Source: a virus (lineage: Duplodnaviria; Heunggongvirae; Uroviricota; Caudoviricetes). Taken from it: a DNA stretch of 30,818 nucleotides. The stretch is taken from positions 1 through 30,818 of IMG/VR virus record IMGVR_UViG_2565956711_000013. One strand, given 5' to 3'. The number at the start of each line of letters is the position of its first letter. The stretch's first letter is position 1. This document shows positions 7,417 through 12,337 of the stretch, piece by piece. The notes beneath the pieces are model-generated. The model was given only the letters and a program-made list of their open reading frames with translations. It had not been told where the DNA came from and did not search any database. Both the position numbers and the translations under genes were made by a program.

Positions 7417-8495
7417 CAGAACGGGTCCTCCTGTACTCTGGCTTTTTTCTTTTTCCGCGCGCCGGGGGCTTCGGGTTCAGGCAGATAAGCATCAGGCGGG
7501 CCGACACGGATTTCCGTCAGGGTGCCGTTCTGGTCCTGAGTAAACGTGACTTCCGAAACAAGCAGTTCGGTATTGTCGAAACCACAGACCGGATCAAAGA
7601 CAATCACCCGCTGGTTGGGCTGCCACAGCGTACCGTTACCCTGTCGCCAGCCCTGCACCACATAGGTGGTTTCATCCGTCCGCGCCGCCCGTTGTCTGGC
7701 TTCAAAGTCCGCACGGGCAATACAGCCTGCCCCCGTAGCCTGCCCTGTCTGCCTGATATACATCGGACGGTAACGGGCAATAAATGCGTCCTCTGTGCGG
7801 GCCCGCAGCGCGGTGGTGGTGGCCTCACCGAAATCATCGTCGTTTCCGGCACGCTGCCCCGCCACCTGGTAAACAGAAAACCGCTCCCGGATACTCTTCT
7901 CCGTATCGCAGGAAAGGATGTTTTCCCCGAGTACCAGCGCAGTATGTGCCCGCGTTGAGCCAATACCGCCAATCACCAGCCTGCCGTGCGGGTCGTCGTA
8001 AGCCAGTGCCTGCTGCTGACCGAGTATTTTGTTGATTACCTCAATCACCGTTTCACCGTGATCAGGCTGAACATCAGGAATAACACCCGACGGCGCACCG
8101 CTGTTCACCACCTCAATGCCGAAAGGCGCAGCAAGCGCCTGCGCAATCTGCACCAGCGAGCGTCCGTTAAACTGTGTCGGTTCAGCTGCACAGTCAATCA
8201 GGTCAGCCGTCAGACTACGTCCGGCAATACCGGTGCTGACCGAACGGGAATCGTAACGAACGGGCGTCGCCTCCACCCAGCCGGTGATCACCAGCTCATC
8301 ACCAATCAGCACTTCCACTTTTGAACCGTTTTTAATGCGCGGCTGAAGCGTGGTGATACCCTCATCTCCCGGCCACTGGCGGGTGATCTCCACACTGAAA
8401 TCCCGCGCCAGCCGTTCAATACCGGCACCGATGCGCACCGATGTCCAGCCATTCCACTCCCGGCCATTTACCCGTAGCGTGACATTGTCGTTCAT
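7416..8495 (-). CDS. Baseplate hub / tail protein (Mu gp44-like)
   Basis: 359 aa; directly downstream of the DNA-circulation-like gene, as in Mu-like tails. Confidence 0.65.
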   Translation of the reverse strand: MNDNVTLRVNGREWNGWTSVRIGAGIERLARDFSVEITRQWPGDEGITTLQPRIKNGSKVEVLIGDELVITGWVEATPVRYDSRSVSTGIAGRSLTADLIDCAAEPTQFNGRSLVQIAQALAAPFGIEVVNSGAPSGVIPDVQPDHGETVIEVINKILGQQQALAYDDPHGRLVIGGIGSTRAHTALVLGENILSCDTEKSIRERFSVYQVAGQRAGNDDDFGEATTTALRARTEDAFIARYRPMYIRQTGQATGAGCIARADFEARQRAARTDETTYVVQGWRQGNGTLWQPNQRVIVFDPVCGFDNTELLVSEVTFTQDQNGTLTEIRVGPPDAYLPEPEAPGARKKKKARVQEDPF

Positions 8496-9820
8496 TGCAC
8501 TGGCACCTTCAGAGGGATCACCGGCACAAAGCCGGGATGCGTAATGGCATTACGCCGGATAATGTCCGCGTCACGCGCCGCGTTATCAAACCAGGTCGCC
8601 GACAGCACCAGCGCGGGTAAAACCTCATCCGGTGTGCGCTGAATGATCCGTGCAGACTGTTCAAGGCGCGTGTTGATATCCGCATTCAGATCTGCTTTCA
8701 CCCGGCGCAGCGCCAGAAACAGCGCATCGCTGGTTGTACGGGACAACTCCTTATCAATTGCCGTATTCAGTGTGTCGCGAATGTCAGTCAGTTCTTCCCA
8801 CGTTGGCAGGTCAACCGTGTTTTTCACCGCCGGTGCATTGTTCAGTGCCGGATGCGTGACGGAAGGCCAGCCAGTGCTCTGCGCGGGTGTTGTTGCCTGC
8901 CCCACTGCGGAATTCTGCATCACCGCGGAAGTTGTTGGCGCAGGCAATCGGGTGACGGCATACGCCGCTTCGCTGATTGCGGTCGTACGAAGGGTGCTGG
9001 CAACCACGTTACGCTGCTGCGTCGCCGTGGCGGTGGTTTTACTGTCCGTTTTCCAGACGCCGCGCGGTTGCAGATCGCTGCCGAGGCTGACACCGGAAAG
9101 CGTTTTGATCATGGTGACCAGGTCGCTGGCGTTACCATAAAGGCGTTTCCCGGTACGCCACATTTTCTGCACCTGCTCAACGAAATTTTTGCCTGACGAT
9201 GGCGGCGGCAGAAGTACCGAGATATCCCCCTGCAACAGCCTGGCGGCATCCGATACGGCAGAATCCACCACTTTCATCGCATCAGAAACATACCCCAGCA
9301 TTATGCTGGCATTACCGATAACGTCGTTCTGCACGAAATCCGCCACACCATCGATACTGAAACCGCTGAAGCTGTCACTGATGCAGTCATCCAGTGCAGA
9401 ACAGGATGACATCAGCGTCTGCGCCGTCGCCGCACCTGATGTGGGGTAAGAGAGTTCTCCTGCTTCGACAAACTTCAGGTCAAAGCGGACAATACGCCCT
9501 TCACTTTTCGATGTGCTGACCCGAACTTCCCCGTCAACACAGACTTTCAGCTCACCATATGTCGGGTGGACAAGCGTGCCGGGACCGGGTTTATTCAGCG
9601 CTTCAATCAGGCGATCGCGCTGGTCAAAGCAGTCATCTCCCACCACATAAGCTGTGATGGACGGGCGGAAAGTGACTTTTCCCAGATCTTCGGTATAGGG
9701 CTTGTCGCGGTTCGGATATTCGTGTGTTTCCACACGGCGACCGGTTCCCGCACTTTCTTCTTCAACCTTAAACGGTACGCCGCGAAATGACGCATCCTGA
9801 AGCCTGTCTTTCCACGTCAT
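8492..9820 (-). CDS. DNA circulation protein-like tail protein (Mu gpN-like)
   Basis: 442 aa; N-terminus resembles the Mu DNA-circulation family; conserved position in Mu-type tails. Confidence 0.7.
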   Translation of the reverse strand: MTWKDRLQDASFRGVPFKVEEESAGTGRRVETHEYPNRDKPYTEDLGKVTFRPSITAYVVGDDCFDQRDRLIEALNKPGPGTLVHPTYGELKVCVDGEVRVSTSKSEGRIVRFDLKFVEAGELSYPTSGAATAQTLMSSCSALDDCISDSFSGFSIDGVADFVQNDVIGNASIMLGYVSDAMKVVDSAVSDAARLLQGDISVLLPPPSSGKNFVEQVQKMWRTGKRLYGNASDLVTMIKTLSGVSLGSDLQPRGVWKTDSKTTATATQQRNVVASTLRTTAISEAAYAVTRLPAPTTSAVMQNSAVGQATTPAQSTGWPSVTHPALNNAPAVKNTVDLPTWEELTDIRDTLNTAIDKELSRTTSDALFLALRRVKADLNADINTRLEQSARIIQRTPDEVLPALVLSATWFDNAARDADIIRRNAITHPGFVPVIPLKVPVQ

Positions 9821-9833
9821 ATAAACTCCGGAT

Positions 9834-9891
9834 ACAAAAAACCCGCCAAATCTGCTTTGTCAGTTATTTACATCGCAGAAGATGTGGCGGG
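9834..9891 (-). terminator. Possible terminator after the AT-rich cargo gene
   Basis: Minus-strand RNA has cccgcca (plus 9885-9891) pairing tggcggg (plus 9842-9848) around a long loop, followed by UUUUUUGU (plus 9834-9841). Confidence 0.35.
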
Positions 9892-9910
9892 AACCTAATA
9901 TTTTTAATTA

Positions 9911-10405
9911 CTATCTGAGTTGAACATCAATGGAATAAATATTACCACTATTTATAAATTTAGAATCTGTCCTTTCATCAAAAGATTCAAATGACTGTAC
10001 CTTTAAAAACTTTTTCATTTTATTTTCAAAAATACTTTCATTAACACCAGTTAAATACTTGAACGCTCTACCAGCAAGGACCTCATTACTTAAATCCATT
10101 GTGTTTTTATTGTCTTTGAAAAACCAAACAATAACTTTTTGTGGGCATGATGGATTATAAACAGATATATAAAACTGCGGCTCATATTTTTCATCAGCGT
10201 CATCACTAAGCATTTCTTCAGAAGATAATTCTCTTCTGAATTCATATTGCCGCTTAGTTATTCCTTCATCCTTTATTATCTCTTGCTTAACTGGTGCAAT
10301 ACCTATAGAAGAGATTAATTCTGACTCATTAAAGCTGAACTTACACTCTTCCGCAGCCAAGTTAAAAGATAAAAGTGCAGATATAAAAAAAACAAAGATA
10401 CGCAT
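9911..10405 (-). CDS. Hypothetical secreted protein with N-terminal signal peptide; AT-rich cargo gene inside the tail operon
   Basis: ORF 9911..10423; likely start at Met7 (ATG 10403-10405) with GAAGGG 6 nt upstream; hydrophobic N-terminus MRIFVFFISALLSFNLAA then charged mature region; far lower GC than flanking tail genes; no family recognised. Confidence 0.55.
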   Translation of the reverse strand: MRIFVFFISALLSFNLAAEECKFSFNESELISSIGIAPVKQEIIKDEGITKRQYEFRRELSSEEMLSDDADEKYEPQFYISVYNPSCPQKVIVWFFKDNKNTMDLSNEVLAGRAFKYLTGVNESIFENKMKKFLKVQSFESFDERTDSKFINSGNIYSIDVQLR

Positions 10406-10504
10406 AATCATCCCTTCAATCATTTGTAAGGAATGATTATATTAACTACTTAAAGCTGAAAACCCAAATTATGCCAGACAAAAACACATTAATCATTTTG
10501 TACA

Positions 10505-12337
10505 CTACCTGAACCGCGTATAGCCAACATCATGGCTGACATCAAAACCGCTGGATCGCGTTTCCATAACCCGCATACCCGGAGGCGAATTCACAAAAGA
10601 GACCTTGATCTCACCATCAACTTTTGGCACAGAAGCTTTGTTAATCATGAAGGGATTCGAGCCTGTGGCATCGGAGGCGTTTTTTGACTGAGCCGGATCC
10701 ACCGCCGGATAAGGTGTGTATCCCCGCGCCGGTATTCCCGTCCCATAAGCATCATAAGCACCCGCGCCCCACTGCGCAGAGTTAATGGCATCGACCGTGT
10801 CACCGGAACTGTCGGTAAACCACTCAATAATTGGCTTCAGCTTGTCCCACATATCCTGAAACCACTTAACAACCGGTCCCCAGTTATTGATCACCATCCC
10901 CAGCGGCGACCAGGCAAAAACCTTCTTCAGAAGTTCCCAACCTGCCTCAAAATAAGGACCAATGGTTTCCCAGAGCTTCTTGAAATAAGGTCCGACAACA
11001 TCCCAGTTAGTGATAATTAATCCCGCAGCCAGAGCAATCGCCGTCGCAATCATGCCAATCGGCGTCATCGACATAATCCTGCTGACAATACTGATGGCAC
11101 TGCCCACGCCCATCAATCCCAGTTTCAGAATCGCAAGACCGGCAGCAAGCCCGACGACGCCGCGAATAACCCGGGGATTTTCATCCGCAAACTTCGTGAA
11201 TTTCTCCCCCAACTCCCCCAGCCATTGTGTGATATTTTTAGCGTCACCAGAAAATGCGCCGCCAATAGCCGCAAGGCCGTTAGTTGCGGTCCCTGTCATT
11301 GCCTCCCACAGGTTGGACAGCGTACCAAGCTGTGCCTGAACACGTTTATTCAGGCTGGCCTGTTTATTCATCTTCTGCTGGATCTGATCGTAGCCATCCT
11401 TTCCTTTATCGATTAGTGCATTGACCACCTGAAGAGTTTCGGCATCATCACCAAATATTGCCTTAAGTACACCTGTTCGCTTAACGTCGGTCAGTTTTCG
11501 CAGCTTTGCCAGTTGCCTGAACATGTTATCAAGACCGCCAAAACTCCCTTTGCCGTCAGTAAAATCGAGCTGTACCCCGAGTTTCTGGCGGGCCATGATT
11601 TTATTAACGTCCCTGATTTTCTTAACGCTTAATCCGGACTGGATAACTTTTCGCAGGGCATTACCTGCCGACTCCCCGTTCATCCCCATCTGATCCATCA
11701 TGACGCTGATGGGGGCAAGGCTCTGTGCAGCCTGAAGACCATCCTTGTTCACCATCTTCAGAACAGAACTGGTTTTAGTGAAGAAGGACAACATGTTGGT
11801 ATCGTCAACGCCCAGATAAAACGCCTTCTGGATAGTGTCGAACAGCCCCATCATGTCTTCTGACGCCGTTCCGGTAGCATCCTGCATCTTTGCCGCAAAC
11901 TCAGCAGCCGCTTCCGGTGTTTTTTTCAGTTGTACCGCAAGATAAGCTGTCGCTTTACCCACACCACCCAGAATGTTTTCTGCCGGGATCCCCTGACGCA
12001 CCAGCATCTGCATCATGTTCTGGAAATCAGCCGTTGTACCGGGTAGCTGGTTACCCAGGCCAATAGCCAGTTTATTGATGTCCTGAAAGCGCTTTCCAAC
12101 CTCGCCGTTCGCATCCATCATGGCGACTTTCAGCCCGGTGGCGGCGTTTTCCTGATCGGCATAAGATTTCAGGGAAAGCGTCAGACCCGCAGCCAGTCCG
12201 CCACCAAGCGCCAGCCCACCCTGTGACGCTTCTTCCGCCTGGCGTTTAAATCCCCGGATTTTCTTTTGCATTTTCGACAGCGCGGGAGAAAGCCTGTCGA
12301 CACCGGTGATCAACGCCTTAAGCTCAAATTCAGCCAT
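10505..12337 (-). CDS. Tail tape measure protein
   Basis: 610 aa; Ala/Gly-rich with a hydrophobic C-terminal segment; located after the tube and chaperone genes. Confidence 0.8.
   Translation of the reverse strand: MAEFELKALITGVDRLSPALSKMQKKIRGFKRQAEEASQGGLALGGGLAAGLTLSLKSYADQENAATGLKVAMMDANGEVGKRFQDINKLAIGLGNQLPGTTADFQNMMQMLVRQGIPAENILGGVGKATAYLAVQLKKTPEAAAEFAAKMQDATGTASEDMMGLFDTIQKAFYLGVDDTNMLSFFTKTSSVLKMVNKDGLQAAQSLAPISVMMDQMGMNGESAGNALRKVIQSGLSVKKIRDVNKIMARQKLGVQLDFTDGKGSFGGLDNMFRQLAKLRKLTDVKRTGVLKAIFGDDAETLQVVNALIDKGKDGYDQIQQKMNKQASLNKRVQAQLGTLSNLWEAMTGTATNGLAAIGGAFSGDAKNITQWLGELGEKFTKFADENPRVIRGVVGLAAGLAILKLGLMGVGSAISIVSRIMSMTPIGMIATAIALAAGLIITNWDVVGPYFKKLWETIGPYFEAGWELLKKVFAWSPLGMVINNWGPVVKWFQDMWDKLKPIIEWFTDSSGDTVDAINSAQWGAGAYDAYGTGIPARGYTPYPAVDPAQSKNASDATGSNPFMINKASVPKVDGEIKVSFVNSPPGMRVMETRSSGFDVSHDVGYTRFR

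What the first reader, a model, noticed from the sequence alone, without database searches (positions are those of the whole stretch)
9821..10504. AT-rich secreted-protein gene inserted into the tail operon between the tape measure and DNA-circulation genes
A roughly 680-bp segment of much lower GC than the flanking tail genes interrupts an otherwise tightly packed Mu-like tail module. It encodes one ~164-aa protein with a signal-peptide-like N-terminus (MRIFVFFISALLSFNLAA) and has a terminator-like hairpin after it. The compositional break marks it as a horizontally acquired cargo gene, and its product is predicted to be exported; I could not place it in any family. Cargo at this position in tailed prophages often encodes lysogenic-conversion or exclusion functions, so that is the working guess.
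Basis: partly seen in the sequence, partly recalled or inferred. Interest (0 to 1): 0.75.

Follow-up and report, generated by a model that had tools for sequence, protein, structure and literature searches.

The report
Exported accessory gene in tail operon
A small AT-rich gene between two tail genes of an E. coli prophage encodes an uncharacterised protein that is probably exported to the periplasm. It fills a swappable slot that related phages leave empty or fill with other envelope proteins, so it is most likely a phage-versus-phage entry blocker, but that role is untested.

Summary
Window 9821-10504 (684 bp, 31% GC against 52-58% in the flanks) lies between the tape-measure gene (TMP) and the DNA-circulation/baseplate-hub gene ("circ") of an SfV-like prophage at dusA. 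On the minus strand it encodes a 164-aa protein with a canonical signal peptide, followed by a terminator hairpin.

The "recent insertion" reading is only partly right.
- The gene is optional: about 85 of about 1,094 E. coli genomes with these flanks carry it, and phages SfV, SfI and SfII lack it.
- It is not a recent arrival. Homologues down to 26% identity sit in the same slot in Atlantibacter, Pantoea phage AH07 and metagenomic phages. They diverge in step with the tail genes and stay AT-rich.
- In the Pantoea-type phages the gap after TMP is only 11-16 nt, so the gene must be transcribed with the late tail operon.
- The terminator belongs to the junction; empty sites have one too.

Across 195 related tail modules the slot holds 29 ORF families, and about 93% of occupied slots encode signal-peptide, lipoprotein or membrane-anchored proteins. 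The focal protein has no Pfam, defence-database or solved-structure relative.

Best guess, at modest confidence: a periplasmic superinfection-exclusion factor. It is a new member of a known kind.

The parts
9821..10504 (-). Accessory-gene slot (684 bp, 30.9% GC) between the tape-measure stop and the DNA-circulation start. This is one allele of a swappable cassette.
   Evidence: Composition. Alignment to the empty SfII junction. The same 684-nt slot in 16 IMG/VR loci, with other alleles of 60, 496, 589 and 683 nt.
9911..10405 (-). CDS for the 164-aa precursor (WP_023277402.1, phrog_8976). Stop codon TAG at 9911-9913.
   Evidence: pN/pS of about 0.20. AlphaFold2 model with pLDDT 86.7 and pTM 0.78.
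10352..10405 (-). Predicted Sec/SPase I signal peptide, residues 1-18 (MRIFVFFISALLSFNLAA), with cleavage before EEC.
   Evidence: Heuristic n/h/c-region analysis, conserved in character across the family. This segment has low pLDDT in the model. SignalP was not available.
10411..10416 (-). Shine-Dalgarno AAGGGA, 5 nt upstream of the ATG at 10405.
   Evidence: Read from the sequence.
10468..10496 (-). Candidate extended -10 promoter: ATGATT (10496-10491), 17-nt spacer, TGgCATAAT (10476-10468). Weak and inferred only.
   Evidence: Read from the sequence. It fails the 9-of-12 consensus scan. A second perfect TATAAT lies at 10441-10436 with no -35 element.
9836..9891 (-). Rho-independent terminator-like hairpin: CCCGCCA stem, about 36-nt internal loop, TGGCGGG stem, then T6. 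It lies immediately upstream of the circ ribosome-binding site (GGAG, 9829-9826).
   Evidence: Equivalent hairpins occur at this junction in all alleles, including the empty site.
10505..12337 (-). Tail tape-measure protein gene (upstream flank).
   Evidence: PF10145; phrog_28 and phrog_17727.
8492..9820 (-). DNA-circulation / baseplate-hub gene, Mu gp43-like (downstream flank).
   Evidence: PF07157; phrog_184.
25576..26328 (-). Q-type antiterminator. It should let late transcripts read through the hairpin at 9836-9891.
   Evidence: PF03589, E 9.5e-54. Read-through is inferred from how lambdoid Q proteins are known to work.

Best explanation
Shown here:
- The segment is one allele of a long-lived accessory-gene slot between the tape-measure and baseplate-hub genes of SfV-like temperate phages with Mu-like contractile tails.
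- The gene is dispensable for making virions and is inherited together with the tail module.

Predicted:
- It encodes a precursor whose signal peptide is removed by signal peptidase I. That would leave a soluble, acidic 146-aa (17 kDa) periplasmic protein.
- The two conserved cysteines (C21, C87) probably form a disulfide.
- The fold is a seven-stranded antiparallel sheet plus two long helices, with no known relative.
- No catalytic-type residues are conserved, so it more likely binds something than catalyses a reaction.

Inferred function: it acts in the periplasm to block genome delivery by incoming phages that use the same kind of tail. It would do this by binding the incoming tape-measure or hub proteins, or the host periplasmic or inner-membrane factor they need. 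That is superinfection exclusion.

Inferred expression: strong expression from the Q-antiterminated late tail transcript. In the Escherichia-type allele, possibly also low expression in the lysogen from a weak extended -10 promoter in the 99-nt spacer.
For: - Export: signal-peptide architecture, a Cys at +3 and a second invariant Cys are kept across 26-66% identity.
- Dispensable: functional phages SfV, SfI and SfII lack the gene. Pseudogenised copies exist in L040, L116 and L172.
- Linked to the entry apparatus: always between TMP and hub, on their strand, in 50 of 195 surveyed modules (33 distinct sequences). Pairwise identity correlates with TMP and circ at rho 0.80-0.84.
- The slot behaves like a diversifying envelope-protein locus. 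It holds 29 ORF families, and about 128 of 138 occupied slots encode signal-peptide, lipoprotein or membrane-anchored proteins. These include families unrelated to the focal one by hhalign.
- Some slot alleles lie on the opposite strand and therefore need their own promoter.
- Purifying selection: pN/pS of about 0.2.
- Precedents. The HK97 gp15 moron sits beside the tape-measure gene and blocks DNA entry in a way that depends on the incoming tail (PMC3594210). A reference list read cites Cumby et al. [quoted passage not shown]
Against: - No exclusion phenotype, expression data or interaction data exist.
- In the Pantoea-type phages the 11-16-nt junction leaves no room for a promoter. Lysogen expression, which classic exclusion needs, is therefore doubtful there.
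- The window's own promoter candidate fails the consensus scan.
- Of the 30 best cargo-carrying E. coli genomes, 9 have two or more matches to this tail junction, against at most 13% of all matching records. The gene clearly does not prevent lysogeny by several related tail modules. This is a crude test; the order of acquisition is unknown.
- Co-divergence with tail genes is expected for any gene inherited in place, so it does not prove a functional link.
Confidence: 0.35

Rival explanations
1. A periplasmic helper for the lytic cycle. It is made only with the late tail operon and acts around lysis. It might mask or disable the receptor or entry route so that progeny virions are not wasted on the lysing cell and its debris, or it might modulate envelope breakdown.
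For: - In 24 Pantoea-type loci and in L020 and L022 the gene follows TMP after 11-17 nt containing only a Shine-Dalgarno sequence, so it is co-transcribed with late genes.
- A Q antiterminator is present.
- From my own knowledge, not checked here: T5 Llp is a phage-made envelope protein that blocks the phage's own receptor during infection.
Against: - Many close relatives manage without it.
- The lysis cassette lies elsewhere in the window, with the endolysin-like gene at 23820-24434.
- Escherichia-type alleles have gained 81-99-nt AT-rich spacers with -10-like elements, which suggests selection for expression outside the late transcript.
- A soluble periplasmic protein cannot directly mask surface O-antigen.
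Confidence: 0.22
2. A lysogenic-conversion or host-fitness factor unrelated to phage competition: a periplasmic protein that benefits the lysogen, for example in stress tolerance or host interaction. Known parallels, from my own knowledge, are lambda Bor and Lom and the Gifsy-2 periplasmic SodC.
For: - Exported product, AT-rich, optional, in a prophage of gut and poultry E. coli, Shigella and Salmonella.
- A homologue that lacks the signal peptide sits in a non-phage chromosomal context beside an autotransporter gene.
Against: - Strict long-term linkage to one position in one tail module across genera with different lifestyles, from plant-associated Pantoea to gut Escherichia.
- A tiny family: 12 representatives among 1.84 billion proteins, essentially confined to this phage slot.
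- Operon-embedded expression in the Pantoea-type phages.
Confidence: 0.15
3. Not exported. The hydrophobic N-terminus is not a signal peptide, and the protein is a cytoplasmic tail-assembly accessory or minor virion component specific to some tail variants.
For: Conserved position inside the tail operon and co-divergence with TMP and hub. Tight coupling to TMP in the Pantoea-type phages.
Against: - Canonical n/h/c signal-peptide regions, a small-x-small cleavage motif and paired cysteines are conserved while the sequence drifts.
- SfV, SfI and SfII build working tails with about 96-97% identical flanking DNA and no such gene.
- No match to any tail PHROG of known function.
Confidence: 0.06
4. 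A recently acquired foreign gene with no role for phage or host, retained only by hitch-hiking. This is the strict reading of the compositional break.
For: Low GC, patchy presence, occasional pseudogenes.
Against: Purifying selection. Retention in place down to 26% identity with co-divergence. A confident compact fold.
Confidence: 0.03

Closest known systems
HK97 gp15 moron (superinfection exclusion protein beside the tape-measure gene)
   Same: An extra, compositionally deviant gene inside the tail operon next to the tape-measure gene. The product is envelope-targeted and not needed for virions. gp15's exclusion activity depends on the incoming phage's tail region (PMC3594210).
   Different: gp15 is a small inner-membrane protein related to YebO and lies upstream of TMP. 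The focal protein is a 146-aa soluble periplasmic domain downstream of TMP, with no sequence relation. Its own promoter is unproven, and no phenotype is known.
Phage P1 Sim (superimmunity/exclusion protein)
   Same: From my own knowledge, not checked here: a signal-peptide-bearing, processed periplasmic protein of a contractile-tailed temperate phage that blocks infection after adsorption.
   Different: No detectable sequence similarity, and the gene does not lie in the tail operon. Any functional parallel is conjecture.
T5 Llp and the Cor lipoproteins of phi80/N15
   Same: Phage-made envelope proteins that block phage entry (Cor in PMC3594210). From my own knowledge, not checked here: T5 Llp blocks the phage's own receptor, and these genes lie close to the cognate tail or receptor-binding genes.
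   Different: They are lipoproteins that act on outer-membrane receptors. The focal protein has no lipobox and its target is unknown. Some sister alleles in the slot are lipoproteins.
Lambda bor/lom and other late-region morons
   Same: AT-rich accessory genes within or beside the late structural region that encode exported or outer-membrane proteins.
   Different: Those have demonstrated lysogen expression and host phenotypes. None is demonstrated here, and in the Pantoea-type phages the focal gene sits inside the operon.

Membership tests
Moron (Hendrix/Juhala sense) | An extra gene between two genes that are adjacent in related phages | tested here: met
   SfV, SfI and SfII, and about half of the matching E. 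coli prophages, have a 60-nt junction instead.
Moron (Hendrix/Juhala sense) | Base composition deviating from the neighbours | tested here: met
   31% GC against 52-58%. All 138 occupied slots have lower GC than both flanks.
Moron (Hendrix/Juhala sense) | Own promoter | tested here: inconclusive
   Only a weak extended -10 candidate and a lone TATAAT. No hit in the consensus scan. Pantoea-type homologues have 11-16-nt junctions with no room for a promoter.
Moron (Hendrix/Juhala sense) | Own terminator | tested here: inconclusive
   A hairpin plus T6 is present. However, a terminator occupies this junction in every allele, including the empty one.
Moron (Hendrix/Juhala sense) | Expression from the repressed prophage | not testable with these tools
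   Needs RNA-seq or 5' RACE of a lysogen.
Moron (Hendrix/Juhala sense) | Recent horizontal acquisition | tested here: not met
   In-place homologues down to 26% identity that co-diverge with the tail genes.
Sec/SPase I-exported periplasmic protein | Positive n-region, 7-15-residue hydrophobic core, small residues at -3/-1, no lipobox | tested here: met
   Heuristic only: R2, hydrophobic core residues 3-15 (Kyte-Doolittle 3.0), LAA|EE, conserved across the family. SignalP was not run and localisation was not tested.
Bacterial lipoprotein | Lipobox [LVI][ASTVI][GAS]C at the end of the signal peptide | tested here: not met
   The Cys is at +3 after AA|EE, and there is no lipobox in the family consensus.
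Known anti-phage defence or exclusion families | Profile match to PADLOC, Pfam or NCBIfam models | tested here: not met
   Zero hits at E <= 1. The only hit is phrog_8976, of unknown function.
Superinfection exclusion protein (functional class) | Blocks infection or DNA entry of specific phages when expressed | not testable with these tools
   Needs plating-efficiency, adsorption and DNA-entry assays.
Structural or assembly component of the Mu-like tail | Present in all functional relatives, or matching a known tail family | tested here: not met
   Absent from SfV, SfI and SfII. 57 of 195 modules are empty. No tail PHROG or Pfam match.

The most novel reading that the evidence does not exclude
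The TMP-hub junction of SfV-like/Mu-like-tail temperate phages is a dedicated "entry-immunity" locus. Unrelated envelope proteins are swapped in and out of it, each neutralising periplasmic passage by phages with the cognate tail. The focal family would then be a new-fold, soluble periplasmic exclusion factor that binds the incoming tape-measure or hub protein and co-evolves with it.
Probability: 0.25. Interest if true: 0.65.

Novelty: new member of a known kind. Interest (0 to 1): 0.42.

Why it matters
If the function is confirmed, this would be a rare example of a soluble periplasmic exclusion factor acting against contractile-tailed phages. It would also be genetically tied to the tape-measure and hub genes it presumably counteracts.

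The broader value is the slot itself: 29 ORF families, almost all envelope-targeted and almost all of unknown function. That gives a compact, testable catalogue of candidate entry-blocking proteins in E. coli, Shigella, Salmonella and Pantoea prophages. This is relevant to phage therapy host range and to how genomes cross the periplasm.

The case also shows that a sharp GC drop need not mean recent acquisition.

Tried and rejected
Searches that found nothing useful:
- Pfam, NCBIfam and PADLOC on the protein: no hits.
- PDB by sequence profile: nothing meaningful.
- Foldseek against PDB: nothing at E <= 1e-3.
- BFVD: a single hit, a gut siphovirus protein labelled "ABC transporter periplasmic binding protein" (E 1.7e-6, TM 0.64). 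I treated the label as an unreliable automatic name and could not retrieve the sequence.
- afdb50 was unavailable.
- Exhaustive HMMER over 1.84 billion representatives and a broadened profile search did not extend the family beyond about 18 clusters.
- Rfam on the segment: only chance-level hits.
- Literature search for the accessions and PHROG id: none.
- The mEpimmI, SfIV and Tai papers do not concern this slot.
- The scan with the L020 circ protein found no loci.

Ideas tested and rejected:
- That the 176-aa allele, whose cassette is almost the same length (683 against 684 nt), is a diverged copy. Rejected by BLASTP and hhalign, probability 0.4%.
- That other signal-peptide families in the slot are remote homologues. 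Rejected by hhalign, all 1.4% or lower. Only F3 and F10 are related to each other.
- That the 99-nt upstream spacer is under special constraint. There is 1 variable site against 35 in the CDS, but nearly all variation comes from two divergent haplotypes, so the contrast is not significant.
- Lipoprotein status (no lipobox), and a gene on the plus strand (no ORF of 44 aa or more in the segment).

Full report
**Abbreviations.** TMP is the tape-measure gene or protein. "circ" is the DNA-circulation/baseplate-hub gene or protein.

**1. What is in the sequence**

The window is an SfV/SfI/SfII-like temperate prophage integrated next to dusA.
- dusA lies at 542-1579 and the integrase at 1668-2765.
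- It has a Mu-like contractile-tail module on the minus strand and a lambdoid Q antiterminator at 25576-26328.
- The TMP gene is 10505-12337 (PF10145). The circ gene is 8492-9820 (PF07157, phrog_184). Between them lie 684 bp (9821-10504) at 30.9% GC, against 52-58% in the flanks.

The segment holds one real gene on the minus strand, 9911-10405.
- It encodes 164 aa starting at MRIFVFF, with an AAGGGA Shine-Dalgarno 5 nt upstream.
- RefSeq annotates the same frame as WP_023277402.1, "hypothetical protein".
- A 164-codon open frame in DNA this AT-rich is very unlikely by chance. My estimate is about 2e-6 per frame.
- Natural variants show 19 synonymous and 16 nonsynonymous variable sites, giving pN/pS of about 0.2.

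Downstream is a hairpin: CCCGCCA (9891-9885) pairs with TGGCGGG (9848-9842), followed by T6. Its fold energy is -24.5 kcal/mol, z = -2.35.

**2. The protein**

*N-terminus.* The N-terminus has the three parts of a Sec/SPase I signal peptide.
- It has Arg2, a 12-13-residue hydrophobic core, and LAA|EE.
- The core is too short for a stable membrane anchor, and there is no lipobox.
- In homologues the signal sequence drifts freely but keeps this architecture.
- A Cys three residues after the predicted cleavage site and a second Cys (C87) are conserved, as expected for a periplasmic disulfide.
- No SignalP-type tool was available, so export is predicted, not shown.

*Mature protein.*
- It is 146 aa, 17.1 kDa, pI 4.9.
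- AlphaFold2 gives a confident compact domain, pLDDT 86.7 and pTM 0.78. The signal segment has low confidence. The domain is a seven-stranded antiparallel sheet with two long helices.

*No known relative.*
- There are no Pfam, NCBIfam or PADLOC hits. The only family hit is phrog_8976, of unknown function.
- One viral predicted structure matches (TM 0.64), but its name is uninformative.
- The invariant residues are P, Y, F, C, A and N. None suggests a catalytic centre, so I infer a binding protein.
- The family is tiny. It has 12 representatives among 1.84 billion clustered proteins and about 18 clusters at 90% identity.

**3. Is it an insertion?**

*Among close relatives it is optional.*
- The flanks occur in 1,094 of 5,426 complete E. 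coli genomes. Only 84-86 carry this gene, always on the chromosome and almost always single-copy.
- It is also reported from Shigella sonnei and Salmonella, and it is present in the isolated phage SKA5.
- SfV, SfI and SfII have a 60-nt junction there.
- Other E. coli prophages carry unrelated cassettes at the same place:
  - a bPH_1 PH-domain protein;
  - a 176-aa membrane-anchored protein;
  - a 225-aa lipoprotein;
  - an OB-fold (tRNA_anti-like) protein with an N-terminal membrane helix, on the opposite strand.
- Cassette boundaries are the last codons of TMP and the T-run before the circ ribosome-binding site. Exchange therefore looks like homologous recombination in the conserved flanks, not site-specific insertion.

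*Among distant relatives it is not a recent arrival.* Homologues sit in exactly the same slot in divergent tail modules.

| Identity to the window protein | Locus and source |
|---|---|
| 61% | L017, E. coli O157:H16 |
| 60% | L009, metagenome |
| 56% | L013, Atlantibacter |
| 40% | L016, temperate Pantoea phage AH07 (PMC8567787) |
| 35% | L022, metagenome |
| 26% | L020, metagenome |

- Across 39 unique loci, pairwise identity of this protein correlates with that of the TMP C-terminus and the circ N-terminus (Spearman 0.80 and 0.84). That is as strong as the correlation between those two (0.83). The protein evolves faster than circ and about as fast as the TMP C-terminus.
- Every homologue stays 12-20 GC points below its neighbours.
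- All 138 occupied slots have lower GC than both flanks.
- Low GC is thus a maintained property of the gene, not an unameliorated scar.

**4. Transcription signals**

*Terminator.* The hairpin is not specific to this gene. Every allele has its own G+C stem and T-run immediately before the circ ribosome-binding site.
- Most homologues have CCCGC-TTCG-GCGGG-T7.
- The empty site has TCCCAC-TCCG-GTGGGA-T6, which the SfII record annotates as a terminator.
- With a Q antiterminator present, late transcripts should read through. That step is inferred from how lambdoid Q proteins work.

*Upstream of the gene.* There are two architectures.
- Pantoea-type: in 24 Pantoea-type loci, TMP is followed after 11-16 nt (Shine-Dalgarno only) by the gene. 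L020 and L022 show the same design with 15-17 nt. There the gene must be co-transcribed with the tail operon.
- Escherichia-type: Escherichia-type loci have 81-99-nt AT-rich spacers.
- In the window the spacer holds a candidate extended -10 promoter, ATGATT-17-TGgCATAAT (10496-10468), and a lone TATAAT (10441-10436).
- Neither passes the consensus scan. An own promoter is possible but unproven.

**5. The slot as a whole**

I extracted the TMP-circ interval from 195 related viral contigs.
- 57 slots are empty (24-72 nt) and 138 are occupied, by 29 ORF families.
- The focal family is the commonest: 50 loci, 33 distinct sequences, always on the tail-gene strand.
- The next most common are:
  - the 176-aa membrane-anchored family (36 loci), which also stays in this slot in Leclercia at 53% identity;
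  - a 150-aa signal-peptide family (15 loci);
  - a 145-aa membrane protein on the opposite strand (8 loci);
  - the OB-fold membrane protein (5 loci);
  - a 64-aa protein with two membrane helices (5 loci).
- Lipoproteins (one DUF7424) and a membrane-anchored bPH_2 protein also occur.
- By my count, about 128 of 138 occupied slots (93%) encode a protein with a signal peptide, lipobox or membrane helix. At family level it is about 12 of 18 credible families.
- These counts rest on a simple hydropathy classifier, and the loci are phylogenetically non-independent.
- The families are mutually unrelated by hhalign, except F3 and F10.
- A few slots hold cytoplasmic cargo: a Clp-protease-like protein, KilA-N, and larger multi-gene inserts.

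**6. Mechanism**

*Firm or well supported.*
- The product is an exported, non-structural protein under purifying selection.
- It is genetically locked to the genes for the parts of the tail that cross the periplasm.
- It sits in a slot that otherwise collects diverse envelope proteins.

*Best reading (confidence about 0.35): periplasmic superinfection exclusion.* The protein would act against phages using the same tail route.
- The pattern matches known exclusion loci: variable, envelope-targeted, and linked to the cognate entry genes.
- The first described moron, HK97 gp15, sits beside the tape-measure gene. It blocks DNA entry in a way that depends on the incoming tail (PMC3594210).
- A reference list read cites Cumby et al. 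2015. [quoted passage not shown] I saw the title only and did not read the paper.
- From my own knowledge, not verified here: P1 Sim is a processed periplasmic exclusion protein.

*Evidence against that reading.*
- There is no phenotype and no homology to a known exclusion protein.
- There is no proven lysogen expression.
- The gene sits inside the operon in Pantoea-type phages.
- Of the 30 best cargo-carrying genomes, 9 have two or more matches to this tail junction, against at most 13% of all matching records. The gene does not prevent lysogeny by several related tail modules.

*Rivals.*

| Rival | Confidence |
|---|---|
| A late-expressed periplasmic helper | 0.22 |
| A host-fitness factor | 0.15 |
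| A non-exported tail accessory protein | 0.06 |
| Functionless hitch-hiker DNA | 0.03 |

**7. Verdict**

This is a new, uncharacterised member of a known kind: an exported accessory ("moron-type") gene in a phage tail operon. It has an atypically old and stable residence in its slot. Interest is moderate, and the slot-wide pattern is more interesting than the single gene.

Noticed in passing
window 9821-10504, and the equivalent interval in L023-L229: The TMP-circ junction is a cassette hotspot. Of 195 related viral contigs, 57 are empty and 138 hold cargo from 29 ORF families. About 93% of occupied slots encode signal-peptide, lipoprotein or membrane-anchored proteins, almost all of unknown function.
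   Followed up: yes
window 9836-9891; L001 1931-1969; L009, L013, L016, L017, L020, L022 just upstream of circ: A rho-independent-type hairpin plus T-run sits immediately before the circ/hub ribosome-binding site in every allele, including empty sites. It divides the tail operon into sheath-tube-TMP and baseplate halves. Its role (attenuation, stoichiometry or mRNA stability) is unexplained.
   Followed up: partly
L018 5001-5471 (Logan ERR5002088 contig): A 33%-identical homologue lacks both the signal peptide and the first Cys. It lies in a non-phage chromosomal context, directly downstream of a 1,079-aa pertactin-type autotransporter gene and its terminator. It may be a captured or decaying copy.
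   Followed up: partly
L111, L115, L183 (slots of 1219-1253 nt): In some Pantoea-type phages a 175-aa KilA-N-domain gene has been added after the focal gene and before circ, so the slot can stack cargo.
   Followed up: partly
L134, L166 and 3 other loci (slot family F8, opposite strand): A 183-aa Clp-protease-fold protein (PF00574, E 2.4e-10) occupies the slot on the strand opposite the tail genes. It is a cytoplasmic exception and a possible defence or anti-defence candidate.
   Followed up: no
L040, L116, L172: Frameshifted or truncated copies of the focal gene occur in otherwise intact-looking tail modules, consistent with the gene being dispensable.
   Followed up: partly
E. coli RefSeq hits H2, H5, H11, H16-H19, H21, H30: 9 of the 30 best cargo-carrying genomes contain two or three matches to this tail junction, against at most 13% of all matching records. 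This suggests lysogeny by several related prophages is not reduced, and may be enriched, where the gene is present.
   Followed up: no
window 26342-27337 and 27339-28148: A DUF968/HNH-like gene and a KilA-N-domain gene lie just upstream of the Q antiterminator gene. They are typical lambdoid nin-region accessory genes and were not examined further.
   Followed up: no
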